Origin: a virus
Lineage: Duplodnaviria; Caudoviricetes
DNA: 27,441 nt
Strand: one strand, 5' to 3'
Virus record (IMG/VR): IMGVR_UViG_3300027850_000141
Span: 1 to 27,441 of that record
Below, in pieces: positions 907 to 21,727 of this stretch. The first letter of the stretch is position 1. Each line of letters begins with the position of its first letter. The notes beneath the pieces were generated by a model. That model did no database searches and had not been told where the DNA came from. It saw only the letters and a list, made by a program, of their open reading frames with translations. The position numbers and the translations under genes were made by a program.

Positions 907-1053
907 ATGGATACCACTGTAGACGACACTCAGGATAACAAGCCTTTGCGAGACTCGGAACGGTTGATTCGAGACAAGCAACAAATGGCAGAGACACTTA
1001 CTAACCGCTTTTACAAAGACCAAACCACCAAAAAATGCCCAGACCAAAAGTAG
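907..1053 (+). CDS. 48-aa hypothetical protein (MDTTVDDTQDNKPLRDSERLIRDKQQMAETLTNRFYKDQTTKKCPDQK)
   Basis: First ATG after the consensus promoter, purine-rich AAAGAGAG upstream, overlaps the next gene. Below the ORF track cutoff. Confidence 0.5.
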   Translation: MDTTVDDTQDNKPLRDSERLIRDKQQMAETLTNRFYKDQTTKKCPDQK

Positions 1054-1217
1054 CCCGAGACCAACTAAAACGCAACGCGGGCATCAGCCTGCGCCCCGGC
1101 ATGATCCGGCAGCTAGACGATGCGGCGGCGCGGCTGGGCTACCCGTCCCGGTCTGCGTTGATTGAGGCGCTGATCAATGCCGGGGGGATCGGGCTGTTGG
1201 GGGATGATTCCTCATGA
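1035..1217 (+). CDS. ribbon-helix-helix (CopG/MetJ-like) regulator
   Basis: Beta strand AGISL followed by LDDAAARLGYPSRSALIEALI. ATGA overlap with the methylase. Confidence 0.8.
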   Translation: MPRPKVARDQLKRNAGISLRPGMIRQLDDAAARLGYPSRSALIEALINAGGIGLLGDDSS

Positions 1218-1297
1218 CGAAACCATTGATCGCATACTACGGCGGGAAGCAACGCATGACGAAACCCCTTATCTCCTACTACGGCGGCAAGCAACGC
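1214..1297 (+). repeat. 42-bp imperfect tandem duplication at the methylase start
   Basis: 1214-1255 vs 1256-1297: 36/42 nt identical, MTKPLIAYYGGKQR / MTKPLISYYGGKQR. Confidence 0.95.
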
Positions 1298-2200
1298 ATA
1301 GCGGCAAACGTTGTTGAGGTGATTGATACGATCCCTCACACCGTATACTTTGAACCGTTCTTTGGCGGCGGTGCTGTCTTCTTTAAGCGCGTCATCCCTC
1401 ACCATACGAATACTCACCATTTTAGGGAGGTGATTAACGACAAATCAGCGCTATTGATCAACTTGTACCGAACCGCTAGAGAGCATCCTGAGGAGTTCAA
1501 CAGCTTGATTGAATGGACGCCATACTCTGAGAGTGAACACAGAAGATCTATGGAGATTTGTAAGAGGCCAGACGAACATAGCGACATGGATAAGGCGTGG
1601 GCTTATTACACCAATATCAATCAAAGTTTCTCTCATCAATTAAATGGAGGATGGGGCAGGGGTGTATATACCCGAAATCTATCTGCCACATGGGACAATC
1701 GGCGATCGCAGATGCCAGAATGCCTAAAGCGACTCAAGGATGTTGCGATCGCTTGCGATGATGCGGCGGTCATCATCCCTCAGTGGGATAGCCCGCAAAC
1801 CTTGCTGTATTGCGATCCTCCATACCCCAATACAGATTGTGGTCATTATTCAGGGTGGACAGACGAAGATCATCAGCAGCTATGCGATCAGCTAGACAAC
1901 GCCCAAGGAAGCTATATATTGAGCGGCTACGACAATCCTATCCATCCCAAAACCTTTGATGAACGGATCGAGATTTCAACTCTTTGCAGTGCCAACGGGA
2001 AAGGCAAGGTAGACAAGGATCGAGATCGCCGCCGCGCCGCCACAGCAGAAGAGATGGGCGATCGCCAGCGGACTGAGGTGTTGTGGATAAAGAATCGCAG
2101 CGCCAACATTAGAGACGAACTAGGCGCGGCGTTGCAGAAACAGCGCTACACGCAGACAGATATGTTTGAACCGGGGAACACAAGCGAGGATGCGCAATGA
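1214..2200 (+). CDS. DNA adenine methyltransferase, D12/Dam class
   Basis: Motifs YYGGK, YFEPFFGGGAV, EVIND and LYCDPPY. The first 14 codons are duplicated. Confidence 0.9.
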   Translation: MTKPLIAYYGGKQRMTKPLISYYGGKQRIAANVVEVIDTIPHTVYFEPFFGGGAVFFKRVIPHHTNTHHFREVINDKSALLINLYRTAREHPEEFNSLIEWTPYSESEHRRSMEICKRPDEHSDMDKAWAYYTNINQSFSHQLNGGWGRGVYTRNLSATWDNRRSQMPECLKRLKDVAIACDDAAVIIPQWDSPQTLLYCDPPYPNTDCGHYSGWTDEDHQQLCDQLDNAQGSYILSGYDNPIHPKTFDERIEISTLCSANGKGKVDKDRDRRRAATAEEMGDRQRTEVLWIKNRSANIRDELGAALQKQRYTQTDMFEPGNTSEDAQ

Positions 2201-2484
2201 CAGGACTTTGCAGAGTTGTAGACAACGGCGCGAATATACTAGTTGACCCTCAATTAGTGCCGATGGAACAGGCCGAAGAATGGGCTAATAGCCTGAACAA
2301 GCAATATCCAAGGCTTGAGTTCATGGGTCTAGATGTGTGGCAGCTAGGCTTAAACCTGCGGATCTGTGGGGTCGATAGTACCGAAGCGCGGGCGATCGCC
2401 AACGATGTGTTCTCAGGGAAGATAACTGAGATCTTTGTGGTGTTCTACAAGACTGGGCGCATAGCAAGCTGGGCTGAGAGCTAA
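2197..2484 (+). CDS. hypothetical protein
   Basis: ATGA overlap with the methylase stop; 95 aa. Confidence 0.65.
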   Translation: MTGLCRVVDNGANILVDPQLVPMEQAEEWANSLNKQYPRLEFMGLDVWQLGLNLRICGVDSTEARAIANDVFSGKITEIFVVFYKTGRIASWAES

Positions 2485-2525
2485 ACCAACACACTGCTAA
2501 AATCAAACCACTACCATGCTCCAAT

Positions 2526-3539
2526 ATGGCAATCATCAGAGCGTTTAAGCGGGATCACAATTGCCCGATCTGCGATAATTCCAAAGGCAAATGCCGGGAA
2601 ACAGAAGACAACCTAATTCTCTGCATGGGCGCTGTTGGCGATCGCGTCCCTGGTTATCGGTACGTCAAACCTAGTAAGGATCGCGTGTGGGCTATCTGGG
2701 CACCCGATACCGATGGCCGTGGCACAACCTCAGAAGAATGGCGATCGCGGTTAGACCAACGGGCACGTGAGAATGCAGCCAGAGAGGCGCGGCGGGCGGC
2801 TAACTGTATGATTGCAGTGGAGCGCGATCGCCATTACCGACGGTTGCTAGATGCCCTGAACCTCAACACTAGCGACCGTGAAGATCTACAACGGCGCGGC
2901 TTTACCGATCAACAGATTGAGGCGGCGGGCTTTAAGTCTGTGGAGCAATGGGAGCGGCTTGATAGGCACTACCCTGACAACCTGCCGGGTGTAGTGAACG
3001 GAGGGCGATCGCTCAACACCTTTGCACCGGGCTACCTTTGCCCTACCCGCAATCAGGACGGCCTGATCATTGGCTGTCAGGTACGGGCTAGGGAAGGAAC
3101 CCCCAAATACTATTGGCTCACGAGCGCCACAAGGGCGAACCCAAGCGGTGCAACACCACACACAACGCACAAAGAACTGCCGCTGACCTATGTCAAAGGG
3201 ACTGGCGATCGCCCGTGGATCGCATTCTGTGAGGGAACCGGGGCTAAACCTCACCTTGCCTCAATCAGGTTAGGCTGCGATGTAGTGGGGGCGGCGGGCG
3301 GTCAGTTTGGCAGTTCCCCTCAGCAAATCAAAGCGGCGATCGATAGCGGCCTTGCTCCAATATTGTTGCCCGATGGTGGTGCGATCGATAACCCCAATGT
3401 TATGCGGCAGTATCAAGGGCTAGCTGAATTGGTGCCGGGGCTGACGATCCTTTGGTGGGGGCAAAACACAAAGGCCGATGGCGATGTAGATGAGGTTGAC
3501 CCGGCCACCCTCGATCAAGCGCGGTTGATCTGTATGTAG
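2526..3539 (+). CDS. primase-like protein (Zn finger plus Toprim-like domain, cyanobacterial plasmid/phage Rep N-terminus), no helicase domain
   Basis: CPIC..C..C zinc site, DLQRRGF, FCEGTGAK, LPDGG and DGDVDE acidic motifs. Extended -10 TGCTAAAAT at 2495-2503. Confidence 0.7.
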   Translation: MAIIRAFKRDHNCPICDNSKGKCRETEDNLILCMGAVGDRVPGYRYVKPSKDRVWAIWAPDTDGRGTTSEEWRSRLDQRARENAAREARRAANCMIAVERDRHYRRLLDALNLNTSDREDLQRRGFTDQQIEAAGFKSVEQWERLDRHYPDNLPGVVNGGRSLNTFAPGYLCPTRNQDGLIIGCQVRAREGTPKYYWLTSATRANPSGATPHTTHKELPLTYVKGTGDRPWIAFCEGTGAKPHLASIRLGCDVVGAAGGQFGSSPQQIKAAIDSGLAPILLPDGGAIDNPNVMRQYQGLAELVPGLTILWWGQNTKADGDVDEVDPATLDQARLICM

Positions 3540-4118: not shown

Positions 4119-5273
4119 CTACCCTAGGATTCGGACGGCTAGCTGAGGACGGTTTAGCAGCACTCCCCACAGGCAATCTACGCTAAAAATCGTCTCTTTC
4201 CAACCGCGCTGAACTTCAAAGCGCAGTACTAGGCCAGACTGAGGATCGGGAAGAACCTCGAGGATATTGCCCGCCGCCGGAACGTCGATGATTGGCCGGG
4301 AAGCGAATGCAATGGCGTCTCGGTGAAATGCGAGGTTGGCAACGTGGGAGGAGGCGGTCGTCGTGACAAACGTGGCAACAGCGCCGTCTGCATAGTTTGC
4401 AGCTAGTCCGGGGCTAATGCCGATCGTGATCTCGTTGGCCGTAGGAGTAGCCGTCGCAACACTTGTCACCACGTAGGTTCGGATATTTCCAGGCAGGCTG
4501 AAAACATCACCGATTGCAGGGGCTACAGGGATTGCGCCAGATCCGTTGTCTAACACTAGACTTGTCGCTCCAGCCACCGCCGCCGCGTCAACTGCATAGG
4601 GTGCAACAGCGGTACTGGTGTGGCGCGGCACTTGCTGATCTTCGTACCAATCAAACCCTACAGCGCGGGTGATCTGGGCATCGCGCAACGTTTCGGACGA
4701 TCCCGATTCGTTGACCTTCTGCAAAACACCTAAACCGAGCGCGTTAGCATACGCAAACTCGTTGAGGATCATCCGGCGATCGCGGTAGGGTGCGAAGGCG
4801 GAAGTCAACATCCGCGATGCCTCTTGGGCTACGCCAGTGTTCACGCCGAATGGGGTCGTCCCGGCTACCCCTGTGACATTGTAGACCTGCCGATAAACAC
4901 TAAAGATCGACGAGTTGATACTACGACACAGCGCTTGTACGGCTTTTTCTACAGCGCGGTTGCGTGTGCCGTTCGCCACCTCAAAAAGGTCTTTGTCGGC
5001 CATTCTGAAGGTCGCGGCTTCAAAATTGTTTAGGTTTAACTGGCGCTTAACGGCCGTCACATCAGAGATAACAGCATCGGCGGGGTACGGGCCGGGCACG
5101 ACGGGAAAAGCTTGCATGTCACCCAATTCGGGGATCTCAATCATGCTCCCCTGGCTCGCAGCTTCCTCACTATAAAGGTTGTTGACTTGTGCCGGCATGA
5201 CACAATTCTCTCGAAGAACATCTAGGATCTGCGAGAGGATCTGAGGGATCAGGGCTTGTAATTGGTTGGGCAT
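4119..5273 (-). CDS. major capsid protein, P22 gp5-like (HK97 fold)
   Basis: 384 aa after the scaffold. Motifs GSMIEIP, GFDWYEDQQVP, NLAFHRDAIAFASRP and DCLWGV..RPQLAVRILG. Confidence 0.9.
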   Translation of the reverse strand: MPNQLQALIPQILSQILDVLRENCVMPAQVNNLYSEEAASQGSMIEIPELGDMQAFPVVPGPYPADAVISDVTAVKRQLNLNNFEAATFRMADKDLFEVANGTRNRAVEKAVQALCRSINSSIFSVYRQVYNVTGVAGTTPFGVNTGVAQEASRMLTSAFAPYRDRRMILNEFAYANALGLGVLQKVNESGSSETLRDAQITRAVGFDWYEDQQVPRHTSTAVAPYAVDAAAVAGATSLVLDNGSGAIPVAPAIGDVFSLPGNIRTYVVTSVATATPTANEITIGISPGLAANYADGAVATFVTTTASSHVANLAFHRDAIAFASRPIIDVPAAGNILEVLPDPQSGLVLRFEVQRGWKETIFSVDCLWGVLLNRPQLAVRILG

Positions 5274-5407: not shown

Positions 5408-6271
5408 CTAGCGATCTGTCAGCACAGCGCCGGATTTGCGAACGGCGGCTAGTTGCTCTGGTGTCATACTGGCAAGCTGACTGCCAATATTTCCCGAGCT
5501 AAGGACGGCCTTACCACCGATCCGACCACCAGCAACAGAGATACCCGCGCCACTAGATTGGTTGTAGGCGGGTAGCATAACTTGGAGCGATCGCCCATAG
5601 TCGCCTTTTTTGATCGCCGTCAACAGATCGGCCATTGTGGCGGGGCGCGATTGAGAGTTCATCTTGCTTGAGTCAGGAACGAAATAGGGCGTACCGTCTG
5701 GCTGTTTGATCGTCTTGATCTCAGCCCTGTAGCCCACAACTGTATCGCCTTGCTTGATTGGGGCGGATTCCAGATCAACGAACATGGCGACAAGATTGCG
5801 GAATTGTTGCATCTCGAGCGCATTGCTGGCAACGCCGCCGCCCTCAAGGAAAATGCCGTCCAAGGTCTGCTCATTGGCACGAACCCGAACATAGTTATCG
5901 AGCGCCGTTAACTGGATTTCGTAGCCTTCTGTGGTTGTTTTGAGCTTTGCTGCGTGAGCAAATTCCAACTCCGCCCGCAGTTTCGCAGCAGTGTCTGCAG
6001 CGTTTTGCTGTTCTTTTAGCTCTGCCAATAGCGCGGGAATTGTAGCAGGGTCAACCCCTTGCTGCGTCAATCTGTCAAGGATGGCCGCTTTTTGAGACAG
6101 TGACTCATTCGTTTTAGATTGTTCGGCGACGATTTGCTTTTGCCGTTCGTAGGCTCGTTTCAGCGCTCCCACATCCTCAGTTGGGATAGTGTCGGGGATC
6201 TTGGATAGGTCAAGATCGGCATCTTGAGAACCGCCATCGGCGGGCGGCATCGCCTGGGTGTCAATGGGCAT
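5408..6271 (-). CDS. capsid scaffolding protein
   Basis: Acidic disordered N-terminus, coiled coil (LKRAYERQKQ), SSGAG tail, position before the capsid gene. ATG 6271 preferred over TTG 6292 because a promoter motif lies at 6297-6306. Confidence 0.75.
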   Translation of the reverse strand: MPIDTQAMPPADGGSQDADLDLSKIPDTIPTEDVGALKRAYERQKQIVAEQSKTNESLSQKAAILDRLTQQGVDPATIPALLAELKEQQNAADTAAKLRAELEFAHAAKLKTTTEGYEIQLTALDNYVRVRANEQTLDGIFLEGGGVASNALEMQQFRNLVAMFVDLESAPIKQGDTVVGYRAEIKTIKQPDGTPYFVPDSSKMNSQSRPATMADLLTAIKKGDYGRSLQVMLPAYNQSSGAGISVAGGRIGGKAVLSSGNIGSQLASMTPEQLAAVRKSGAVLTDR

Positions 6272-6327
6272 GGGGTGATCGGATAAGGTCAAAGCTAGAG
6301 TGCCTAGCCCATCACCCCATCACCGCA

Positions 6328-7188
6328 TCAGATAGCGATCGCCGCTATGGCCTTTTCTTCGTGCTGGCATTCTGACAGAAAAGCATCAATTCCCCAGTCG
6401 TTGATCTGCCCTTCGCAGACTGCCAACGATTGACCTTCTTTCCAAGTGGCTACACCTCTAGTGATCCGATACCGTGATGACTGGCCATCACCATCCAGCT
6501 TGTATTCAAGATCTCTCACCGCTGGCTCAACCTTGACCCGCGCCGCTAGTGCCATCCCTGCTGTACCATCTGCAACACGAGCGATCGCCGATCGACTGCG
6601 CACCATATTTTGCAGAAACAACAGCCCCGCATCTGCCGAACCTGAAGGGAGAATAATGTTGGTAAGGGTGTTTAGCTTTTCCTGCGTGGCGGTTTCGCTG
6701 TCATATTTGCTGTCGACGTCATCCAAAATGATTAGATCAGGACTAAACTTTTCTAGCGCCTTTTGAGTAGCGCGGCCTTCTAGCCCAACCGACATAGCGC
6801 CCCACCCGTTCTCTGCCTCAATTCGCCATGCCCTCCAGCCTTCTGAGGAGGAAACGTTGACAGTACAGCGAACCCCAAGCTGATTGAGTAAACCACCAAT
6901 ATCTTGGATATGGAAATCCGCCTGATGCTGCATATCGCAGACATACAGAACAAAACGGCGCGTTAGTGATAGCGCTGTATATCCTGAGATAAGTTCAGCC
7001 ATTGTCGATTTAGCGCCGCATCGCGGCCATACCTCAACCCGTGGAGGAGGCTTAGTTCCATAACTGAAATCCGCCACCCAATCCCAGATAGCCATGTGGC
7101 GATCGCCCATAGGGATTAGGTCGCGTGGCAAGAATCTGGCCATTGTATCCGCAGGATTTTCACCACGGCGAGGAGATTTAATTGGCAT
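6328..7188 (-). CDS. terminase large subunit paralog, ATPase domain only
   Basis: Colinear with about residues 38-311 of the 9962..11458 protein (roughly two-thirds identical by eye). Walker A PRCGAKST, Walker B LIILDD. Ends just after QHE with no nuclease domain. Confidence 0.9.
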   Translation of the reverse strand: MPIKSPRRGENPADTMARFLPRDLIPMGDRHMAIWDWVADFSYGTKPPPRVEVWPRCGAKSTMAELISGYTALSLTRRFVLYVCDMQHQADFHIQDIGGLLNQLGVRCTVNVSSSEGWRAWRIEAENGWGAMSVGLEGRATQKALEKFSPDLIILDDVDSKYDSETATQEKLNTLTNIILPSGSADAGLLFLQNMVRSRSAIARVADGTAGMALAARVKVEPAVRDLEYKLDGDGQSSRYRITRGVATWKEGQSLAVCEGQINDWGIDAFLSECQHEEKAIAAIAI

Positions 7189-7213
7189 GAGGTAATCGGA
7201 TAAAGGATAGCGA

Positions 7214-8035
7214 CTAGCCTAGCACAGACTCCGACAGCGATCGCCGCCAAATCACTAGACAGCGACAATTACCCCGGCAGCTACAGCGATCGCCCTTTGG
7301 CACAATTTCGGCGGCGGCGACAAACCCATCAGTCACGTAGCCGGGGCACTCAGGGCAATGATCCGCGCCGGGGTCTAGCGATCGCCTGCCTTGCCATCCA
7401 CCTTGTGAAACCCTGATGGCGTGTTCAGCATCGTAGTATGAAGCGCCGGTGTTTGTTGCGTACCTTGAGGCGCGGGCTAACATTGCAATAGCGGATACGC
7501 TACCGATGGCGATCGCCGCTGCGAATCCTGATAGCGCGGTAAACTCTGCGGATAGTCGATCGCCCAACCGTCTGAGGTGTTCGGCGTTTAACCCGGCGGC
7601 AGTTCCCGCGCCCGCTTGGGTCATCCGTAGGTGTGAGTGGTAAAGGTCACTGGCCATGAATCTCTGCCAATCAGCTAGGGTGATATTGCCATCGATCAAT
7701 TCTTGCACTTGGCGACGGTAGCGCTCGGTTGTGTTTGCGCGATCTCTGCCGATTATCTGTTCTATTTCAGGAATGGCCACAGCCCGACGCCCGCGATAAT
7801 ACAGACCATCTGACTGCCGATAAGTTAGTCGGTTAGACGGGACAGAACTGATTAACAGCAGCAAAACAAGCGCGGCTAATAGCTGAGACAGGCCGTTAGG
7901 TTCGGCGTTGGCTTCGGCGATCGCGGCCTGTATCGCGGCTATATCCTGATCAGCTATGGCGATCGCCCCTGACTCAATCAATAGTTGGTCAGCGCTAAAA
8001 ACCTCACCCGCGATTCTTGGGTTTGCGTCCTCCAT
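7214..8035 (-). CDS. minor head / head morphogenesis protein (Mu gpF / SPP1 gp7-like)
   Basis: C-terminal HCPEC...CSCRGNCRC motif, located in the head operon. Confidence 0.75.
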   Translation of the reverse strand: MEDANPRIAGEVFSADQLLIESGAIAIADQDIAAIQAAIAEANAEPNGLSQLLAALVLLLLISSVPSNRLTYRQSDGLYYRGRRAVAIPEIEQIIGRDRANTTERYRRQVQELIDGNITLADWQRFMASDLYHSHLRMTQAGAGTAAGLNAEHLRRLGDRLSAEFTALSGFAAAIAIGSVSAIAMLARASRYATNTGASYYDAEHAIRVSQGGWQGRRSLDPGADHCPECPGYVTDGFVAAAEIVPKGDRCSCRGNCRCLVIWRRSLSESVLG

Positions 8036-8409
8036 CAGAACAGCATCATCCCATCTCTGTTCCTTGACTCTGTAGCGATTTGCTGGCCAAGAATCCGCGA
8101 CACCCGCAGCCTCAACTCTGCATACCGATCATCAATCCCTAACAGCCGTGACCCCTCTGACCACTCTAGCGATCCGGCCTTGATCAATGCGGCGTTAGCG
8201 CTACCCGCCTCCGTGCCCCTCGCTGCCGTTAGCGCGTCTAACTCTGTCAGATCAGCCTGCACTCGTGTGATCAGGGTTTCATCTGTTAGCGCGTCTAGTT
8301 GCCCTTGCACCAATTGATTGAGGTTACTGTAACTGCTGGCGAAACGGCTGTTTGTGGTATAGGCATTGTGCAGAATCACCCGCGCTTTATCGACTAGGTT
8401 CCACGGCAT
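8035..8409 (-). CDS. putative head completion / adaptor protein
   Basis: 124 aa, helical with an IKAGSLEW hairpin motif, overlaps both neighbours. Confidence 0.5.
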   Translation of the reverse strand: MPWNLVDKARVILHNAYTTNSRFASSYSNLNQLVQGQLDALTDETLITRVQADLTELDALTAARGTEAGSANAALIKAGSLEWSEGSRLLGIDDRYAELRLRVSRILGQQIATESRNRDGMMLF

Positions 8410-9913
8410 TAGGTGCGTCTCCTGTTAGTCCTAGAGAGGGCAAAGTTGTGCTGTTTGGCTGTGGAGGAATCGCCCCCGCTGCCGTCATTTCGTCTGTCCA
8501 CTCGCCCAACTCAATCAATTTGATCCGATATTGCGCGGCATTCATCCCGCCCGACAAGAAATTGTTAAACCAAAACGTCAGTTTCTCAGCACTCGCAGGG
8601 GCCGTAATCGCCGCATCGCTAACCGTAACGCCGCCCGCGCTGCCGTCAACTGGGAAGCTAGGATCTTGAAACCGTTTGACAAAATAGAATATCTGTGCTA
8701 TTGCGCTTTCCTTGCGTCTGGCGATCCCTTTTAGCGATAGCCGCGATTGGTTGGACTCAATCACAGCTTCGGTTGCAGTGCGCTCCACCTCCCCCCCAGT
8801 TAGGAAAGATTGGGCGATCGCATCCATCCTCGTTAGGCGATCGCGTTGCCCTTCACGGGTGCTGTTGAGCGCTGTGCAGGCAGGCTCTAGCAGTGTCATT
8901 TTGCCGCCGCCCTCCATTCTGCGAATCCGGCCTGACATCAGCATATCGCCGCTCTCGGTCGGTGCATTGTTGGGGTATTCTTCCACGACGATAGCAAAAT
9001 TGGATCGCGTTTCGGCTGTGTTTTGCTCACTCAGCTTATTAAAATATTCTAGGTTTAGGTCAACCAAGGGCATATATTCGGGAATGCCGCCGCCGATTAC
9101 GTCTGTATCGATCCCGTGGAAAAGGACAGGATCGCCGTACAGCGAATACCAGACCAGTGGCAGAGAGCCTAGTGGTTGACCCGTGGCATCTAGGATCGCG
9201 GTTGCTTCGGTAAACGGATCGACGACAATATTCCCCGTTGGCCGTCCGTCTTTAACCTCATCCCTCCAAACCTCAACAACCGCGCGATGTGATTGCATAT
9301 ACCCGGCGCGATTCAGAGGTTCGTCAAGCTCCTGTAGGCTATAAACCCAGTATTCGTTAAAGGTGGTCACGCCAAACCGACCCGCTGGCTCTGTTGCACT
9401 TCGGGCGATCGCCACTTGCATAATTTGCAAAACGCCGTCAATCTCACCCACGATTGGAGCGTAAATATCACGGATGCCAACGGTTATCAGACGCGCCCTA
9501 GATTCTGCCGTTGCCCGCGTCTTAGGGACGTCCACAATAACCAGCGCCGCATTATATAGGAGAGATTGCGAATCTAGGCTAAGCAGGTAAGCGACCAGAC
9601 TTTGGCGTTGCCCGTCTACATTCTCAATCCACTCTCTTATATCTAGCGGCGTATCTTCGTCAACTGAGTACTCCGACAAAAGCCCAGCGTGTGCTTTCAC
9701 GGCTGGTTTCAGCCTGTTTTCAAAAGCAACCGTCTCCACGCGCGCCCTATAAACCTGATCCACCTCGCCTAGCTGTTTGCGGAGATAACGTTCTTTTAGC
9801 GGCCTGTTGTGCAAACCAGAATAGCAATTAGAGACACGCTCCCACAGAGGCGTTAAAACGTCCGTCCAATAGGGCGGGCGATAGTCGGGTTTGTCAAACG
9901 GTTGTGAGGGCAT
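8387..9913 (-). CDS. portal protein (DUF4055-like)
   Basis: 508 aa right after TerL. Motifs YL..GE...YRAR, ENVDG, PLVDLNLEYF, ERTATEA. Confidence 0.85.
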   Translation of the reverse strand: MPSQPFDKPDYRPPYWTDVLTPLWERVSNCYSGLHNRPLKERYLRKQLGEVDQVYRARVETVAFENRLKPAVKAHAGLLSEYSVDEDTPLDIREWIENVDGQRQSLVAYLLSLDSQSLLYNAALVIVDVPKTRATAESRARLITVGIRDIYAPIVGEIDGVLQIMQVAIARSATEPAGRFGVTTFNEYWVYSLQELDEPLNRAGYMQSHRAVVEVWRDEVKDGRPTGNIVVDPFTEATAILDATGQPLGSLPLVWYSLYGDPVLFHGIDTDVIGGGIPEYMPLVDLNLEYFNKLSEQNTAETRSNFAIVVEEYPNNAPTESGDMLMSGRIRRMEGGGKMTLLEPACTALNSTREGQRDRLTRMDAIAQSFLTGGEVERTATEAVIESNQSRLSLKGIARRKESAIAQIFYFVKRFQDPSFPVDGSAGGVTVSDAAITAPASAEKLTFWFNNFLSGGMNAAQYRIKLIELGEWTDEMTAAGAIPPQPNSTTLPSLGLTGDAPNAVEPSR

Positions 9914-9961: not shown

Positions 9962-11458
9962 CTACCAGATAGCCGCGCCCGCGTTGGATGTTCTGACAGG
10001 TGTACCGAGCATCAACTCTGTGAGCGCCCAAACCAGCGCATCGAGGCGGTTTGGGCTTTGCATCCCGTGCGTCCACTGGCACAATTCACGTTCCAAGTCT
10101 GGGTAGTTCCCCACGTGGTGCACCATCCCTTGCTGGTATTTTTGCTGAATTGGTTCCGCCCGAATGGCCTTACCCCTCGAGGCAGTCACTAACTTTACAT
10201 TGACACGGCGATCGCACGACCTAATCACCGTGGCGACCATATCACCGCCGTAGTTAGCCTCACACGCAACGCAATCGCCTTGCAGTAGGTTGTACCGGGC
10301 GACCACATCAGCCCCCCATTCTGCTGAGGTGCCGGTCGTTGAGTCGTCTGCCAGAACATAGGCGTGGCCAGTAATATCAAGCCCTGCTGCGATGATGCCT
10401 GTCTCGGTGCCCGTACCGCCGGAAGGGTCAACACCTAGCACAATCCTAATTAGTGCAGGATGGCTAGACACGCGATAAGGCACAATGTCGCGTGACTTAT
10501 CCCATAGCCCTCCATCGGGTTCATCCTCATGCTGAGATTCTGCGAGAAAAGCACGAAGCCCCCATTCATTGATCTGGCTTTCACAGACTGCCAATGACTG
10601 CCCTTCTTCCCAAGTGGCTGTACCGCCAATGATCCTGTACCGCGCTGATTGACCCTCGCCGTCTAGCCTATATTCCAGATCTCTCACAGCAGGTTCAATG
10701 GTCACCCGTGCCCCTAGCGCTATCTCTGCCGTGCCGTCTGCAACACGGGCGATCGCCGATCTGCTGTGGATCATATTTTGTGCAAACAACAGGCCAGCAT
10801 CTACCGACCCTGCCGGAAGGATGGCACTGCTTATGGTTCTCAGCCTTTTCTGTGTGGCGTTTTCGCTGTCGTTTTTGCTGTCGATGTCGTCCAAAATAAT
10901 CAGATCAGGCCGGAACTGACCTAGACGCGCCCCTCGAACACTGCTGTCTAAACCCACAGATATAGCGCCCCACCCGTTCTCGGTTTGGATGCGGCGGGCT
11001 GTCCACCCTACTGAAGATGAGTAAACATTGACAGCGCGGCGGATTCCAATCTGTTCAAGGAAACCAGCGATAGATTGGATATGCAGATCGGCCTGATCCT
11101 GTGTGCCACAGACGTACAGCACAAAACGCCGCGATAGGGTCAGGGCTGTGTATGACGCGATGAGTTCGGCCATTGTCGATTTAGCTCCACCCCGTGGCCA
11201 AATCTCAACACGCGGCGGCGGCTTCGTCCCAGCGCTAAAGTCTGCCGCCCAGTCCCAAACAGAGATATGGCGATCGCCCATAGGGATCAGCGTATCTGGC
11301 AATAGCCGCGCCATCGTATCGGCAGGATGTTCCCCACGGCGCGGGCGGTAGATTTCAGGTACAGGGCGATCGCGTTTGTTGGATCGGATGCCCAAGCTTT
11401 GCGTGACGGCTTCGTTCGAGCGGGCGATCGCATACGCCAACGGGTTAAATTTCCCCAT
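9962..11458 (-). CDS. terL: terminase large subunit
   Basis: Walker A PRGGAKST, VRG..PDLIILDD, and RNase H-like nuclease motifs GVDP, EANYGG, GKAIRAEP, SPNRLDALVWA. Confidence 0.95.
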   Translation of the reverse strand: MGKFNPLAYAIARSNEAVTQSLGIRSNKRDRPVPEIYRPRRGEHPADTMARLLPDTLIPMGDRHISVWDWAADFSAGTKPPPRVEIWPRGGAKSTMAELIASYTALTLSRRFVLYVCGTQDQADLHIQSIAGFLEQIGIRRAVNVYSSSVGWTARRIQTENGWGAISVGLDSSVRGARLGQFRPDLIILDDIDSKNDSENATQKRLRTISSAILPAGSVDAGLLFAQNMIHSRSAIARVADGTAEIALGARVTIEPAVRDLEYRLDGEGQSARYRIIGGTATWEEGQSLAVCESQINEWGLRAFLAESQHEDEPDGGLWDKSRDIVPYRVSSHPALIRIVLGVDPSGGTGTETGIIAAGLDITGHAYVLADDSTTGTSAEWGADVVARYNLLQGDCVACEANYGGDMVATVIRSCDRRVNVKLVTASRGKAIRAEPIQQKYQQGMVHHVGNYPDLERELCQWTHGMQSPNRLDALVWALTELMLGTPVRTSNAGAAIW

Positions 11459-11939
11459 CTTCCATCCGCTGCAGCAATTCGGTAACGCCCAACGTTAGCG
11501 CCCAACCCTCGAACCCTTGTCCTAACAGGCGATCGGCGGCTAGGACAAGCGGGGCAATGTCCTTCATACCGATCGACTCCTCTGGCAGATCATCAAAGCG
11601 CGCGCCCGCTTTTTGGAACATTTTGATCCCGCGATTGATCCGCGTTTTGTACGATGCCCTCAGCGCCTGCTGAAATTCCAACAAGTCCGCTTTGTACTGT
11701 GCGATAACTTTGTCCTGTACTTCGTCCGCAGCCTCTTGATACCTACCCCTAGAACGCTCCTGCCGCCGCTCGATTTCAGAGGCTAACTCAGCGGCGAACG
11801 CCGGGCTGTGATTGCACCATCGGTTGACTGTAATCCTGTTCAGTCCTAGTCGCTCAGCTGTAGCGCCCTGTGTCAAACCCTCAGACAGGCAGGCGATCGC
11901 ATTCTCTTGATCTCTAGTCAGGGGCTGGATTTGAGTCAT
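11445..11939 (-). CDS. terS: terminase small subunit (N-terminal HTH)
   Basis: HTH GLTQGATAERLGLNRITVNRW followed by helical segments; overlaps the terL start. Confidence 0.75.
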   Translation of the reverse strand: MTQIQPLTRDQENAIACLSEGLTQGATAERLGLNRITVNRWCNHSPAFAAELASEIERRQERSRGRYQEAADEVQDKVIAQYKADLLEFQQALRASYKTRINRGIKMFQKAGARFDDLPEESIGMKDIAPLVLAADRLLGQGFEGWALTLGVTELLQRMEDGEI

Positions 11940-12503: not shown

Positions 12504-13790
12504 CTACAAATGGCCTACCAGTTCAGGCACTACGCCCGTGAGTTTCGTGAACCGTTGTAGCACGACCTCGCAATAGTCGGGCGATAGTTCAAATCCGTAG
12601 ACCGTGCGATCGCCGTTCATCTGTTGCGCGGCGATGATTGACGGGGCGCTACCTAGGAACGGATCAAAGATTAGATCGTCGGGCTTGCCATATTTCTCGA
12701 ATACCCATTCAGCGAGGGCAACTGGCTTTTGGGTTGGGTGAACCCTTTTTTGTCCATGTTCAGAGGCTTTGATCATGCCATGCCATTGGTGTCTAAATAC
12801 ATCTAGCTTTACCCCTTTGTTTGCGTATGCTATCTCAGCACCACTAAAAGTGTCACCCTCTCTCTCTTTGTCCCAAACTATCCACCCAAAGCCGTCACCT
12901 AAAACAGACGGATAATAATTCGCTCCCCAAAATATTTGAGTTGCATTTTTGAATAACCGATTTACCAAATAAAAACTATCTTTAGCTACCGATGTATCTC
13001 CATCACCTAATATTTCCCCAAAATCGTTACTAGCTGCGGAACCCTGAATTCCCTTTCCACTGTGATTAATCCCATACGGCGGATCAGCCCACACCATACC
13101 CACCGTGCGATCGCCCAACAACGTCCTAACATTGCCCTCATCGGTCGAATCACCACAACAGATCCGATGCCGCCCCAATTGCCAGATCTCACCCGGCTTT
13201 ACACGGCTGGCGATTTTGCCCTCATCCGCATCAGCTAGCAGATCAGAAACGGCCTTTTCGTCCTCCTCCGTTTCGCCGATTTCGGATGAGTCATCCTGTC
13301 CTAACGCAAAATTGATTTCCTCTTCGGTGAATAGAGTCGCTGGTAAGCTTTGCCCCAACTCTGCCAAAACCTGCAAATCCACCGCAAACTGTTCAGGGTC
13401 AAGATCGTAGTTTAGCTGTGCAGATCTATTATCTGCATGAGCGGCGGCGATCGCAGCCGGATCTCTAGCGTCTGTCCAATCTGTTCGCCGGGTGGCTACT
13501 CCCACATCGCCCTCAACATCGACCTCGATCCACGCCAGGGCTACCCCGTTAGCGACCGCGCTTTCGTAAGCGTGATTGCCATTAACGACCGTACCATCGG
13601 CGGCTACGACTATGCCCCTGTGCAACCCTGAAAGTTGTAGAGACTCGTCTAATGCAGCCACCCCGCGCGGTTTGCCACGGTTGCTATTGCTAGGGTTGGG
13701 GGAGTAGGCTTCTGCGGATCTAGCCCTGATTGTGACCACACGGCCATCAGGTAGGGTGATGTTCTGCTCTTGTGGGTTGGCGGATTTCAT
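12504..13790 (-). CDS. ParB-like N-terminal domain plus N4/N6 DNA methyltransferase
   Basis: VVNGNH and ADNRSA (ParB-like), WQLGRHRICCGDST, DPPY, HPTQKP, DPFLGS. Typical position upstream of terS. Confidence 0.9.
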   Translation of the reverse strand: MKSANPQEQNITLPDGRVVTIRARSAEAYSPNPSNSNRGKPRGVAALDESLQLSGLHRGIVVAADGTVVNGNHAYESAVANGVALAWIEVDVEGDVGVATRRTDWTDARDPAAIAAAHADNRSAQLNYDLDPEQFAVDLQVLAELGQSLPATLFTEEEINFALGQDDSSEIGETEEDEKAVSDLLADADEGKIASRVKPGEIWQLGRHRICCGDSTDEGNVRTLLGDRTVGMVWADPPYGINHSGKGIQGSAASNDFGEILGDGDTSVAKDSFYLVNRLFKNATQIFWGANYYPSVLGDGFGWIVWDKEREGDTFSGAEIAYANKGVKLDVFRHQWHGMIKASEHGQKRVHPTQKPVALAEWVFEKYGKPDDLIFDPFLGSAPSIIAAQQMNGDRTVYGFELSPDYCEVVLQRFTKLTGVVPELVGHL

Positions 13791-14170: not shown

Positions 14171-14964
14171 CGTGTCACCCCGGCGCTAACCCACTCCTCT
14201 AGATCCTCCAATAACTCGATCCCGGTTGACCGATACACCCCACTGGTTTGGGGGATAACCTGCCGGGTGTAGCCGATCGCCCGTCCTAGCAACGCCTCTA
14301 ACTGTTCGAGCCGCGACAATAGGATTGACTCAGAATAGCCAACAGATTGAGGGACAGCGGTAGTCCGAACGTCTGCACGAACGGCGGCGGGCGGTTGCGT
14401 GATTAGGTCGCTGATTGGGATTCGCTGGATGCCATCGTCCGATGCGATCGTGACAGTACCCGATGAGCGATCGCCGTCGATGACGGTGCCTGAGATTGTA
14501 GGGGTAGAAACAGAGTCGCCGATCGCTAGCAACAGGGATTCCTGGTTAGGATGACGCCACGATTGCAGCGTTCTGACATTGACTTGGTGACCAGACTCTG
14601 CAACCGAAAGCGCCCGGTCAACGATACGCTGGTCGGCGGTGGCGAGTTGGTTGAAAGCTGCCTCAGTGATTGGCAGAATCTCAATTCCCTCAACATGGCC
14701 GAAGCGCTTGTAGAGGGCAATCAGCTTAGTGGCAGTCGCGGGGTCAATGCCCACGCAGACCTCTAACCATGATTCGAACAATCTCGCATCCGTTGTCCAT
14801 GTCTGCGCTCTCATCTCTAGCAGCAATTTACCAGCGTTCAACGCCGCGATCCGGCCTGTTTTCATGCACCCTTGGATCAGCCGCGCGTCTTGCTGTGCCT
14901 TGTCTCTACAGGCTGCGGGTAGGCTGGTATATTCAAAAATTTGCAGTTGAACCGAGGCATTCAT
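14167..14964 (-). CDS. DUF3102-like protein
   Basis: AGKLLLEMR...LFESWLEVCVGIDPATATKLIALYKRFG pattern. Confidence 0.65.
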   Translation of the reverse strand: MNASVQLQIFEYTSLPAACRDKAQQDARLIQGCMKTGRIAALNAGKLLLEMRAQTWTTDARLFESWLEVCVGIDPATATKLIALYKRFGHVEGIEILPITEAAFNQLATADQRIVDRALSVAESGHQVNVRTLQSWRHPNQESLLLAIGDSVSTPTISGTVIDGDRSSGTVTIASDDGIQRIPISDLITQPPAAVRADVRTTAVPQSVGYSESILLSRLEQLEALLGRAIGYTRQVIPQTSGVYRSTGIELLEDLEEWVSAGVTR

Positions 14965-15688
14965 ACGCAATTCGTTCCCGCCCTATTTGAATGTTTTTCT
15001 GCACTGTCTCGATCGATTGTCCCAACTCTAGCGCTATATCCTCAACAGTCCGCTCCTCAATAAAGTGCCGAACGCAAGCAAGTATCACAAGCGCGGGTAG
15101 CCTTTGGAGCGCGGCGGTAACGGGGGAAAATGCCCCCACCGTTTCCGCCTCTAGTTGTGGCGCTTCGGCTATGCAGTCTAGGGCGATCGGGTTTTGGCGT
15201 GCCCGCTCTGCCGCTATTTCTTCCCAGCGTTTAAGCGGAATCCCTAGACTCAGCGCAGCGTCAGACCGTGGGCGATTAATCCCTAAGCTGAGCCATTTGC
15301 GGTGTCTCGTTAGGACGCGAGAATACAGCGGCGCGTTAGTCTGATTCCTCTTACACCCCGTGTGTGGGTCGGGGGAGCGATCGCGGTGGTGACTGAGTTC
15401 GCCGTTGATTATCGGGATCGCGTAGCTCGAAAAGCTATAGCCTAGGCTAGGGTTAAACCGCTCCACAGCTTTGATCAAACCAACACGCGCAATCTGCAAC
15501 AGGTCGGGGTACGGGGTCGCCTGGATTTTGGCCGCTTTACTAGCTGCCTGAGTGGCAAGCCTGTCGTTAGCGACAATTATTTGATCGCGCAACTTGATTG
15601 ACGGAGCGCTGTGATATTGCGCCAACAACGCCGTTATTTCGGCACCTCGAACCGTTAACACTCTAGGCATAGGGCGGGGGTGGGACAT
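14933..15688 (-). CDS. phage-encoded alternative RNA polymerase sigma factor (SigF/SigB-like)
   Basis: Region 2 DLLQIARVGLIKAVERFNPSLGYSFSSYAIPIINGE and region 4 HTH TVEDIALELGQSIETVQK. ATG 15688 follows GAGGG. Confidence 0.85.
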   Translation of the reverse strand: MSHPRPMPRVLTVRGAEITALLAQYHSAPSIKLRDQIIVANDRLATQAASKAAKIQATPYPDLLQIARVGLIKAVERFNPSLGYSFSSYAIPIINGELSHHRDRSPDPHTGCKRNQTNAPLYSRVLTRHRKWLSLGINRPRSDAALSLGIPLKRWEEIAAERARQNPIALDCIAEAPQLEAETVGAFSPVTAALQRLPALVILACVRHFIEERTVEDIALELGQSIETVQKNIQIGRERIAYECLGSTANF

Positions 15689-15760
15689 GGTACACACCCT
15701 CAAATCTAGCACTACAGAACGAAACACCATAGGCACAATAGCGAAAACAAGGGCGGGCAG

Positions 15761-17410: not shown

Positions 17411-17671
17411 TCAAACTGGCTTGTTTACGTCCCAGTGCGGGGGAGGATTGATATATTTCGTGGTGCCATCCCAGCGGATCGTGATGTTCCATCCCTCATC
17501 ATCATTGACACGGCTAGGGCAATGTTCGACGTTGATGCCGTCTTTCCTGACTGCGAACTCGTATTTTTTGATGTCGTTCGTACCAGAGGAGTCCATAAAC
17601 AGAGCAAGGCTAATGGCGTAATGGTGGCTCCTTTTTAGGAAAAACACTCTAACGGCTGTAAAGAGTTTCAT
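17411..17671 (-). CDS. hypothetical protein
   Basis: TAATG overlap with the thyX stop. Confidence 0.55.
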   Translation of the reverse strand: MKLFTAVRVFFLKRSHHYAISLALFMDSSGTNDIKKYEFAVRKDGINVEHCPSRVNDDEGWNITIRWDGTTKYINPPPHWDVNKPV

Positions 17672-18402
17672 TATGGTGCAAGCCTCGCTTTCCCTAATCT
17701 ATTTTCCTTATACCACTCTGCGATCGCAGGCACCCACTCCTCAAAATGCGGCCACAGTAACTCGCAGAGTTGTTGACATTCTAACTGCGCATCGGCCTTC
17801 GATCTCAGGTCGAACAGGTGCATTAAGGATCGCACGTTTGCAGACATCACCCAGCTTTGGCGAACGTCGAACGGCAAACCGCCCCGCGCGTGTTCTTCGG
17901 AATAGCCATCCTGCATCCGTTCGGCATAGCGGATCGCAGCCTTTAGTGCCCAATCCATATCGTCTGTACGCTGTTTCTCTGTGTACTCATACCGCTTGCC
18001 TTGGCGGTCGGTGTACGCTCCCACGGGGCGCAGATAGGCAAATCTCTCAGGGTCTAGTTCACCATTTGCCACGCTAACGATTCGGGCGCTGGTGTACCTG
18101 AACGATTGCACCGAAAAATGCCAGCCGATGCGGTGGGTGCGGATTTGCTGCATGACGCTATGAGGGAAGTCAACCACGTTAAAGCTGATCTGAGGAGCTT
18201 CCAAGGGGGAATAGTGCCCCCGGTTGCCTTTCAGCAGGTGCTTAACAACATACTCCCCGGCGTTCGCTTCGGTGGGGCGATCGCAGTCCACGGCGGGCTG
18301 ATCAGATACGCACTGATGAGCCGCTAACCATGCTAACTGCTGAGGGTTGGGGGTGCGGGCGATTGTCTCAACCCGGAAAAGGGGATCGATGATTGGTGTC
18401 AT
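17671..18402 (-). CDS. thyX: FAD-dependent thymidylate synthase
   Basis: GHYSPLE, QIRTHR..HFSVQSFRY, EHARG.LP, NVRSLMH..DLR...AQLE. Confidence 0.95.
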   Translation of the reverse strand: MTPIIDPLFRVETIARTPNPQQLAWLAAHQCVSDQPAVDCDRPTEANAGEYVVKHLLKGNRGHYSPLEAPQISFNVVDFPHSVMQQIRTHRIGWHFSVQSFRYTSARIVSVANGELDPERFAYLRPVGAYTDRQGKRYEYTEKQRTDDMDWALKAAIRYAERMQDGYSEEHARGGLPFDVRQSWVMSANVRSLMHLFDLRSKADAQLECQQLCELLWPHFEEWVPAIAEWYKENRLGKARLAP

Positions 18403-20897: not shown

Positions 20898-21584
20898 TTA
20901 GGCGACTGGGGAGTTTTTTTGTCCGTCCACCACCCCAGCGATCGCCCTCTGAATAGCTGCCCTTACCCGCCGAAACACAGAGTGAGAATCGCCCCTTCCA
21001 TCAACGCGCTGGATTCGGCGGTCGAAGCGCGATAGCGATTCAAACCCGGCATAAACCAGCGAGTGGAACGCCCTATCCTCAGCATCTATCCTGTTAGCCT
21101 GACCCCGCGCCTCAACCCTCGCTAGGGCATCATCCACGGGCAGATCTAGCCAGAGCGTCAAATCGGGTCTAGGGGCGGCGGTGATCCTGTTCACCTCAAA
21201 CACCACACCAGCGCCCAAACCACGCGCCAGACCTTGATAAACAAGGGTGGAATCTGTGTAGCGATCGCACACCACGATCGCGCCACTAGCCAACGCCGGG
21301 GCGATTATCTCCTCAACGTGTTGGGCACGGGCGGCGGCAAACAGTAGTAATTCTGCGCGGTGGCCTATCTGTGCCCCGTGAAGGCCACCCAAAATAGTGT
21401 TACGTATATTCTCACCTAACGGAGTCCCACCCGGCTCCGTGGTGGCAATAACCGCAGAGTATGGCAACGATGGGGGATGTTCTGGTAGGTCTATCTGCGA
21501 TCGCAGCCAGTTTTCGGCTAGTTTGGCTTGTGTGGTTTTGCCGCAGCCTTCGCCGCCCTCAAAGGTGAGTAGGAATCCATTCAT
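20898..21584 (-). CDS. tmk: thymidylate (dTMP) kinase
   Basis: FEGGEGCGKTTQ, EPGGT, ELLLFAAARAQH, DRYTDST..YQG, PDLT. Confidence 0.95.
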   Translation of the reverse strand: MNGFLLTFEGGEGCGKTTQAKLAENWLRSQIDLPEHPPSLPYSAVIATTEPGGTPLGENIRNTILGGLHGAQIGHRAELLLFAAARAQHVEEIIAPALASGAIVVCDRYTDSTLVYQGLARGLGAGVVFEVNRITAAPRPDLTLWLDLPVDDALARVEARGQANRIDAEDRAFHSLVYAGFESLSRFDRRIQRVDGRGDSHSVFRRVRAAIQRAIAGVVDGQKNSPVA

Positions 21585-21727
21585 GGGGTTGGCTTTGAGG
21601 GTTGGGCAATCCATCGAAGTTCTAGCGAGATTCTGTCAAGACAAACCGGGTGATATTTCAGGTTTGGCCATTCTGGAAAGGATTTGCGATCGCCCGCAAT
21701 CAGTTTGGTGCAATAGGCGCAATTCAT
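21581..21727 (-). CDS. 48-aa zinc-finger protein (MNCAYCTKLIAGDRKSFPEWPNLKYHPVCLDRISLELRWIAQPSKPTP)
   Basis: CxxC...HxxC. TAATG overlap with the dnaB stop and ATGA overlap with the tmk start. Missing from the ORF track. Confidence 0.8.
   Translation of the reverse strand: MNCAYCTKLIAGDRKSFPEWPNLKYHPVCLDRISLELRWIAQPSKPTP

What the first reader, a model, noticed from the sequence alone, without database searches (positions are those of the whole stretch)
6328..7188. Second, ATPase-only terminase with rewired motor motifs inside the head operon (decoy or poison subunit?)
Seen: a 286-aa paralog of this phage's own TerL. It lacks the first ~35 residues and stops at the ATPase/nuclease hinge (QHE). 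It is well diverged (roughly one third of residues, mostly conservative changes) yet has no internal stop or frameshift, unlike a decaying duplicate. Notable non-conservative changes hit functional motifs: Walker A PRGGAKST>PRCGAKST, GTQDQA>DMQHQA, and SSVRGARL>GRATQKAL. Established: the RG motif before Walker B is conserved in TerL and has been proposed to supply a trans-acting arginine finger, and Avs (AVAST) STAND NTPases sense terminases. Inference: this is a selected non-packaging TerL mimic. It could be a decoy that soaks up terminase-sensing immunity, a dominant-negative subunit against competing phages, or a packaging brake.
Basis: partly seen in the sequence, partly recalled or inferred. 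Interest (0 to 1): 0.88.

Follow-up and report, generated by a model that had tools for sequence, protein, structure and literature searches.

The report
One-sided terminase ATPase copy, optional gene
Some strains of this likely cyanobacterial phage carry a second, selection-kept copy of the ATP-binding half of their own DNA-packaging motor that keeps its ATP pocket but has lost the arginines of its other face, so it likely caps the real motor protein rather than packaging DNA.

Summary
The ORF at 6328-7188 (minus strand) is real: 70.5% identical to residues 36-313 of the phage's own TerL, with no nuclease. It is sister to that TerL (98/93), sits at the same site in two relatives, and is under purifying selection among alleles (omega about 0.3, against 0.015 for TerL). 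It is optional: an empty allele, joined at a 12-bp direct repeat, occurs in other runs. The flanking repeat gives it a copy of the putative scaffold's start signal. The ATP pocket and lid are kept. R141, G142 and R149 (99-100% conserved in 98 TerL relatives) are lost in all six alleles compared. The Walker A change is only a polymorphism. A fold model docks TerL's arginine face on the copy's ATP face (0.66, best control 0.00; may be by likeness). Best reading (0.4): an acceptor-only cap on TerL, possibly hiding the face that terminase sensors read. A plain decoy is weaker, because ATPase domains alone activate Avs2 and Upx. Truncated terminases are already noted in print (Rak2-like phages, T4 vs.8), and this scan found them in other genomes. 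This one is an independent, young, traceable case. No function is shown.

The parts
6328..7188 (-). ATPase-only paralog of the phage's own TerL, 286 aa; optional gene
   Evidence: AF2 model mean pLDDT 93.7, best PDB match P74-26 TerL ATPase domain
7003..7026 (-). Walker A loop (res 55-62); R56, G58, K60, S61 kept, G57C polymorphic
6919..6936 (-). res 85-90; T86 (97% conserved in TerL) is M in all six alleles compared; lies on the predicted acceptor interface
6742..6777 (-). res 138-149, donor (arginine) face: R141, G142, R144/K and R149 lost in all six alleles compared
6718..6729 (-). Walker B (res 154-157), intact
7180..7247 (-). upstream copy of an imperfect direct repeat: 3' tip of the 273-aa gene, spacer, first three codons; perfect 12-bp core with a HIP1 site at 7236-7247; supplies the paralog's start
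   Evidence: (55 of 83 columns identical, score 53 against a maximum of 32 in 300 shuffles)
6263..6345 (-). downstream copy of the repeat; 12-bp core at 6334-6345; gives the paralog its last codons and stop, then the putative scaffold start
   Evidence: empty allele joins 7236 to 6322
9962..11458 (-). full-length TerL, 498 aa (ATPase part 10520-11353); parent of the copy and predicted partner
   Evidence: (PF17289, phrog_38)
11445..11939 (-). likely TerS
   Evidence: weak PHROG TerS hits and position
8387..9913 (-). portal
   Evidence: phrog_145, E 7e-35
8035..8409 (-). 124-aa head-module gene, unknown function
   Evidence: phrog_34914; same position in L001, L003
7214..8035 (-). 273-aa head-module gene whose 3' tip is duplicated around the paralog
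   Evidence: phrog_24776
5408..6271 (-). putative scaffold (inferred from position before the capsid gene; no family hit); ATG at 6271, ORF finder starts at TTG 6292
4119..5273 (-). major capsid protein
   Evidence: phrog_283, PF11651

Best explanation
The gene is an optional, selection-kept duplicate of this phage's own TerL ATPase domain that keeps the ATP pocket and lid but has lost the arginines of its opposite face, and it likely works as an acceptor-only cap: it is predicted to bind the arginine face of a real TerL subunit and would end the chain there. Shown: origin from the phage's own TerL, flanking repeat that copies the putative scaffold's start, presence/absence polymorphism, purifying selection among alleles, one-sided loss of conserved residues. 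Inferred: origin by tandem duplication of terL-to-scaffold-start followed by internal deletion; expression at head-protein level in the late operon; ATP binding; no packaging (no nuclease, no C-terminal arm). Predicted only: binding to TerL. The pay-off is open. The cap would either hide free TerL from terminase-sensing defences in some hosts, or damp packaging (its own, or a co-infecting relative's).
For: Sister to own TerL, 98/93, stem 0.52 against 0.033 changes per column. Omega among alleles 0.313 (CI 0.17-0.56) and 0.27 (p 3e-9 against 1); longest identical run with TerL is 31 nt, so no long conversion tract. Of 56 columns conserved in at least 80% of 98 TerL rows and kept in own TerL, 10 are lost in all six alleles, 8 of them in residues 85-173 (p 0.017), while Walker A, Walker B, QN and lid residues are kept. 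RG and the Arg before PD stand in 132 of 132 full-length proteins with the motif. Complex model of TerL ATPase plus paralog with ATP/Mg: score 0.66, best of 3 controls 0.00; the mark was reached by 116 of 157 solved complexes and 2 of 215 mismatched pairs (counts hold only roughly here); runs share at least 65% of contacts, partner pLDDT at least 86. In the best run TerL gives its RG/RPD face and the paralog its P-loop and lid. On that interface 12 of 30 donor positions changed in the paralog against 6 of 35 acceptor positions (p 0.054), 45 of 207 elsewhere (p 0.039), and 2 of 20 lid contacts; five true TerL relatives show no such asymmetry. Mixed rings with inactive subunits slow and fail more often in T4 (PMC8589836, abstract).
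Against: The complex pass may reflect likeness: the partner is 70% identical to TerL, the two alignments share most rows, and terminase-like rings have been solved. The face asymmetry is borderline and was tested on an interface from that same model. Four acceptor-face positions near the ATP site (85, 86, 92, 96) did change and could weaken binding. A cap would also act on the phage's own motor, and own TerL shows no compensating change (stem 0.033). One allele (P0002) lacks 17 residues of the lid, including predicted contacts. The arginine finger's place varies among terminases and HK97 has none, so R141/R149 as fingers is inferred. On the stem, conserved columns changed about as often as others (10 of 56 against 51 of 212, p 0.37), which fits simple release from function. 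The gene is dispensable.
Confidence: 0.4

Rival explanations
1. Free decoy: the copy was made unable to join TerL rings and competes by itself for terminase sensors, most plausibly two-domain sensors such as Avs3, binding without activating them.
For: ATP face kept; optional gene with mosaic, faster-changing alleles; borrowed head-gene start could make it outnumber TerL (inferred). SeAvs3 needs both ATPase and nuclease domains (10.64898/2026.08.25.746987, passage citing earlier work). The positions matching PhiV-1 Arg154 and Trp179, which EcAvs2 contacts, are changed in all six alleles, which could detune activation.
Against: ATPase domains alone activate EcAvs2 (5 of 5 terminases tested), all three Upx homologs tested and Avs2-trypsin, and T4 vs.8 is itself toxic with EcAvs2. 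A lure should keep the sensor-contact face, yet that is the face that changed. The host's defence genes are unknown.
Confidence: 0.2
2. Defused relic: after the duplication the copy lost its arginines to stop it wasting ATP or gripping DNA, and is now only weakly held (folding, hitch-hiking) while being lost by recombination between the 12-bp repeats.
For: Empty allele in runs X5 and X6, and junction-like loose ends in X1 and X3. Stem omega not distinguishable from 1 (p 0.30). P0002 lid deletion. Found only in one narrow phage group: 2 distinct contigs with two copies among 140 loci with an ATPase hit. Isolated TerL ATPase domains are hyperactive (D6E, abstract) and bind DNA (P74-26, passages).
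Against: Omega 0.27-0.31 among alleles, significantly under 1. Synonymous distance to TerL about 1.2 with the frame still open. No frameshift among the indels listed for the ORF in X1-X3, only an in-frame 3-nt insertion, and none of the 19 listed substitutions in the ORF makes a stop (120 rows of substitutions were not shown). Losses cluster on one segment rather than everywhere.
Confidence: 0.22
3. A new job that needs neither TerL nor a sensor, for example a nucleotide-binding head-assembly helper or a partner of TerS or portal.
For: Intact nucleotide pocket, position among head genes, rapid stem evolution followed by constraint. The scan's earlier notes place similar copies in the TerS slot of other phages (unchecked).
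Against: The phage has its own likely TerS, and a relative with the same head module (L166) and the empty allele assemble their module without the gene. No new domain was gained.
Confidence: 0.15

Closest known systems
Large terminase ATPase domain (phrog_38 family; structurally P74-26 TerL ATPase, PDB 4ZNK)
   Same: Fold, Walker A/B, QN motif and lid; 70.5% identity to the phage's own TerL.
   Different: No nuclease or C-terminal arm; family-invariant R141, G142 and R149 lost; optional gene.
[quoted passage not shown]
   Same: Second gene with an incomplete terminase domain in a genome that has a full terL; function unknown.
   Different: That gene neighbours terL by locus number and is very distant from it (domain E 1e-9 against 5e-79). 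This one lies 2.8 kb and three genes downstream, is 70% identical to its parent, is polymorphic for presence, and finds no match among 50,697 GenBank phage records, so it arose separately.
T4 vs.8 (PMC13601566, Results parts 1-2 of 3, Discussion and a Methods section read)
   Same: Stand-alone ATPase-like homolog of the phage's terminase with Walker A and B kept; role in the phage unknown; anti-defence role raised by the authors as a possibility.
   Different: vs.8 activates EcAvs2; whether this protein does is untested. vs.8 belongs to the T4 terminase family. vs.8 itself was not fetched or aligned here.
Inactive-subunit doping of terminase rings (T4 gp17, PMC8589836 abstract; D6E R158A complementation, PMC5727402 passages)
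   Same: Shows that subunits lacking one catalytic face enter rings and alter packaging or hydrolysis.
   Different: Laboratory point mutants of full-length proteins; no natural, genome-encoded cap was found in the searches.

Membership tests
Large terminase (working packaging motor) | ASCE terminase ATPase fold with lid | tested here: met
   AF2 pLDDT 93.7; top PDB hits P74-26, PhiV-1, T4, D6E, HK97 terminases
Large terminase (working packaging motor) | Walker A R..GK[ST] and Walker B acidic pair | tested here: met
   R56, G58, K60, S61, D156, D157, D159 kept in all six alleles compared
Large terminase (working packaging motor) | C-terminal RNase H-like nuclease and arm | tested here: not met
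   ORF ends 9 residues after QHE; no PF17289; no second nuclease piece in the window
Large terminase (working packaging motor) | Family-invariant arginines before Walker B (RG, RPD) | tested here: not met
   99-100% in 98 TerL rows and 132 of 132 full-length proteins; absent in 6 of 6 paralog alleles
Large terminase (working packaging motor) | ATP-driven DNA packaging | not testable with these tools
   needs an assay
Rak2-like / phiM12 truncated terminase | Incomplete terminase domain in a genome with a full terL | tested here: met
Rak2-like / phiM12 truncated terminase | Gene next to terL | tested here: not met
   three genes lie between
Rak2-like / phiM12 truncated terminase | Common descent with those genes | tested here: not met
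   sister to own TerL; no tblastn match in GenBank phages at E 1e-4; CBB_274 not aligned directly
vs.8-like Avs2 activators | Stand-alone terminase-like ATPase with Walker motifs | tested here: met
vs.8-like Avs2 activators | Toxic when co-expressed with Avs2 | not testable with these tools
   needs co-expression
Anti-Avs decoy or inhibitor | Binds a terminase sensor | not tested
Anti-Avs decoy or inhibitor | Blocks sensor activation | not testable with these tools
   needs a rescue assay

The most novel reading that the evidence does not exclude
A phage-encoded cloak made from its own immune trigger: the copy clamps onto the face of free TerL that holds the residues matching PhiV-1 Arg154 and Trp179, which the Avs2 sensor reads, while its own exposed face has lost those residues. 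TerL is hidden from terminase-sensing immunity until it loads on the portal, and the gene is kept only where hosts carry such sensors.
Probability: 0.2. Interest if true: 0.85.

Novelty: new variant of a known kind. Interest (0 to 1): 0.58.

Why it matters
ATPase-only terminase copies have been noted in several phage groups and their job is an open question, named as such for T4 vs.8. Most are too distant from their parent to read. This one is young: its parent, its birth scar, its allele series and a natural empty allele are all at hand, and the losses fall mainly on one face. That turns the open question into direct tests (binding to cognate TerL, ring capping, Avs/Upx rescue). If it caps or cloaks TerL, it would be a natural packaging-motor inhibitor or a new counter-defence strategy built from the sensed protein itself.

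Tried and rejected
Donor from another phage: rejected among the sequences sampled, since the copy is sister to own TerL (27 of 104 rows used, the closest ones). Rewired Walker A: rejected, polymorphic. Gene conversion from terL as the cause of low omega: no identical tract over 31 nt. Branch omega for the stem: not identifiable, outgroup synonymous sites saturated. Independent ATPase-only copies in this TerL family: none; 58 short hits examined, 38 of 38 with the motif keep RG and none ends at the hinge like this one; 140 of 214 loci had an ATPase hit and only the window's contig and the L001 contig had two (many loci are short or flank-limited, so this is weak). Close relatives by scaffold or 273-aa gene in viral contigs: only the L001 contig. 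Pfam: no hit; PDB by sequence: no terminase hit. ESM Atlas: terminase-like clusters only. Own promoter: four promoter-like sites against 7.6 expected by chance, so no signal. Expression: no RNA holder listed. Run X5 has no cover over part of the gene and X6 none over it; only their bridging joints are used. The 1.84-billion-protein profile search and the VIA structural alignment were not obtained, so more distant truncated copies and a residue-level structural match to P74-26 remain open. The original Avs1-4 paper was not available; its Avs3 result is taken from a later preprint. Literature searches for a natural dominant-negative or duplicated terminase found only the precedents cited. No supplementary files were read; those of PMC13601566 (vs.8 alignment, Avs2 contact tables) may bear on the contact mapping.

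Full report
Observation. The window holds a phage head module on the minus strand: likely terS, terL (9962-11458), portal, a 124-aa gene, a 273-aa gene, the gene in question (6328-7188), a putative scaffold and the major capsid gene. The 286-aa ORF aligns to TerL residues 36-313 with 196 of 278 columns identical and one gap; of 81 substitutions 33 are BLOSUM-positive, 19 zero and 29 negative. No nuclease or N-terminal terL piece occurs a second time. The model is confident (pLDDT 93.7) and its best solved match is the P74-26 TerL ATPase domain. The octamer HIP1 occurs 65 times against 0.5 expected, and the nearest named TerLs are in Nodosilinea and Leptolyngbya genomes at about 55-58%, so the host is likely a cyanobacterium (the HIP1 link is recalled knowledge).

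Relatives. Seven protein variants are on record at 85-93% identity or more: the window, P0001, P0039-P0042 and P0002. All end the same way. P0041 is partial and was left out of the six-allele counts. P0002 lacks 17 lid residues in frame. The gene stands at the same site in L001 and L003. L003 shares its assembly prefix with the window's own record, so it is another strain but not an independent sample. A more distant phage with the same gene order (L166; capsid 57%, TerL 57%) has the 273-aa homolog directly before the scaffold homolog, with no copy. Among 214 loci, 140 had an ATPase hit and only the window's contig and the L001 contig had two. A search aimed at short proteins gave 58 further hits; all 38 with the motif keep RG and none ends at the hinge. 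The copy is therefore specific to this phage group as far as seen.

Origin. In a tree of 27 ATPase rows the six alleles form one clade (100/100), sister to this phage's own TerL (98/93), with stems of 0.52 and 0.033. The gene is bounded by an imperfect direct repeat (55 of 83 columns, score 53 against at most 32 in 300 shuffles; also in L001 and L003) made of the 3' tip of the 273-aa gene, the spacer and the first three codons of the putative scaffold, with a perfect 12-bp core at 7236-7247 and 6334-6345. So the copy starts from a duplicate of the scaffold's start signal and takes its last codons from the second repeat in another frame. Inference: tandem duplication from terL to the scaffold start, then internal deletion. 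High expression is inferred from this and not measured.

It is optional. A contig in run X5 (depth 23.4) and one in X6 join 7236 to 6322 at the repeat, leaving the 273-aa frame with a normal-length end; a gene-bearing contig in X5 has depth 3.2. X5 and X6 are one study. Junction-like loose ends occur in X1 and X3, where gene-bearing contigs are deeper (35 and 42). Depths are rough and are not shares of cells. Whether the empty allele is ancestral or a loss cannot be told.

Selection. Paralog against TerL: dN/dS 0.157, dS about 1.2; this alone could be inherited. Window against L001: 0.313 (CI 0.17-0.56, p 9e-5), against 0.015 for the TerL ATPase part; only one of the other genes compared was as high. 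A codon model on 7 sequences gives 0.27 among alleles (p 3e-9 against 1), while the stem value is unidentifiable (p 0.30). No long conversion tract from terL explains it. In X1-X3 the indels listed inside the ORF add up to one in-frame codon, and none of 19 listed substitutions is a stop; 120 substitution rows were not shown, and protein searches see only intact genes.

What changed. Of 56 columns conserved in at least 80% of 98 TerL rows and kept in own TerL, 10 are lost in all six alleles: T86, E102, R108, T125, R141, G142, R149, K170, A182, I196. Eight lie in residues 85-173 (p 0.017) and four of seven conserved K/R are among them (p 0.015). Walker A, Walker B, Q193/N194 and the lid motifs are kept. 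RG and the Arg before PD stand in 132 of 132 full-length proteins with the motif. The Walker A cysteine is polymorphic. Against a tidy story: over the whole domain conserved columns changed about as often as others (p 0.37), and published work places the trans arginine differently in P74-26 and D6E and finds none in HK97 (passages of PMC5727402 and PMC9410871).

Model of the pair. TerL ATPase plus paralog with ATP and Mg scored 0.66 against a best control of 0.00. That mark was reached by 116 of 157 solved complexes and 2 of 215 mismatched pairs, counts that hold only roughly here; the runs share at least 65% of contacts and partner pLDDT is at least 86. The pass may come from likeness to terminase rings, since both alignments share most rows. 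The direction is the useful part: TerL offers its RG/RPD face, the paralog its P-loop and lid. Mapped on this interface, 12 of 30 donor positions changed in the paralog, 6 of 35 acceptor positions (p 0.054), 2 of 20 lid contacts and 45 of 207 others (p 0.039); five true TerL relatives differ evenly over the three sets.

Mechanism. Most likely (0.4) the protein binds ATP, docks on the arginine face of a TerL subunit and cannot pass the ring on, bind portal through a C-terminal arm, or cut DNA. In T4, motors with inactive subunits engage less, slow and fail more (PMC8589836, abstract). The difficulty is the benefit, since own TerL would be hit too. One answer is a cloak. EcAvs2 contacts PhiV-1 terminase Arg154 and Trp179 (PMC13601566). 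T7 gp19 has R153, D160 and W178, one less in each case, and a profile alignment (probability 82%, E 1e-5) puts these on the TerL residues that match paralog 149 and 173. Both TerL residues are in the predicted interface and both are changed in all six alleles. This chain is inferred and the second match is the weaker. A free decoy (0.2) suffers because ATPase domains alone activate EcAvs2, Upx and Avs2-trypsin, though SeAvs3 needs both domains. A defused relic (0.22) and a TerL-independent job (0.15) remain.

Known cases and novelty. A truncated large terminase beside terL is reported for vB_PcaM_CBB, other Rak2-like phages, phiM12 and phiN3 (PMC5259590, passage), and T4 vs.8 is a terminase-like ATPase that activates EcAvs2 with no known role. 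This scan's earlier notes list seven such findings in other genomes and none on this DNA. The present gene is not a member of those families by descent and fails the TerL membership test, but works at most like a one-faced TerL subunit. I found no paper on a natural capping or cloaking terminase copy in the searches, which cover open-licence papers only. Papers seen: PMC13601566 (abstract, Results parts 1-2 of 3, Discussion, one Methods section), PMC8589836 (abstract), passages of PMC13581612, PMC5727402, PMC9410871, 10.1101/080440, PMC11564622, 10.64898/2026.08.25.746987 and PMC5259590. Verdict: real, selected, optional, new variant of a known but unexplained kind; interest 0.58.

Noticed in passing
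window 1035-3539 (+): Plus-strand block after the head genes (60-aa small protein, D12-class adenine methylase, 95-aa protein, 337-aa protein with no Pfam or PHROG hit) varies among relatives: L001 lists only the 95-aa gene, L003 has the 337-aa gene next to the 111-aa gene. A second accessory site.
   Followed up: partly
window 12504-13790 (-); L001 2554-3225; L166 937-2196: Gene before terS carries an N6/N4 methylase domain in the window and a similar long form in L166, but L001 has only the 223-aa N-terminal part.
   Followed up: no
window 4119-5273 (-), residues about 214-304: The capsid protein has an inserted segment with weak hits to the distal tail protein pb9 B domain.
   Followed up: no
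whole window: 65 HIP1 octamers against 0.5 expected; the 12-bp repeat cores around the paralog each contain one.
   Followed up: partly
P0002: Allele with a 17-residue in-frame lid deletion between two similar short motifs, otherwise almost identical to P0042; natural deletion or assembly error.
   Followed up: no
window 14933-15736, 21727-23088, 17671-18402, 20898-21614 (-): Sigma-70-like protein and DnaB helicase; two further ORFs look like ThyX and thymidylate kinase by recalled motifs, not tested.
   Followed up: no
L031 7995-9337: A TerL relative whose ATPase and nuclease hits fall in two different frames; frameshift or assembly error.
   Followed up: no
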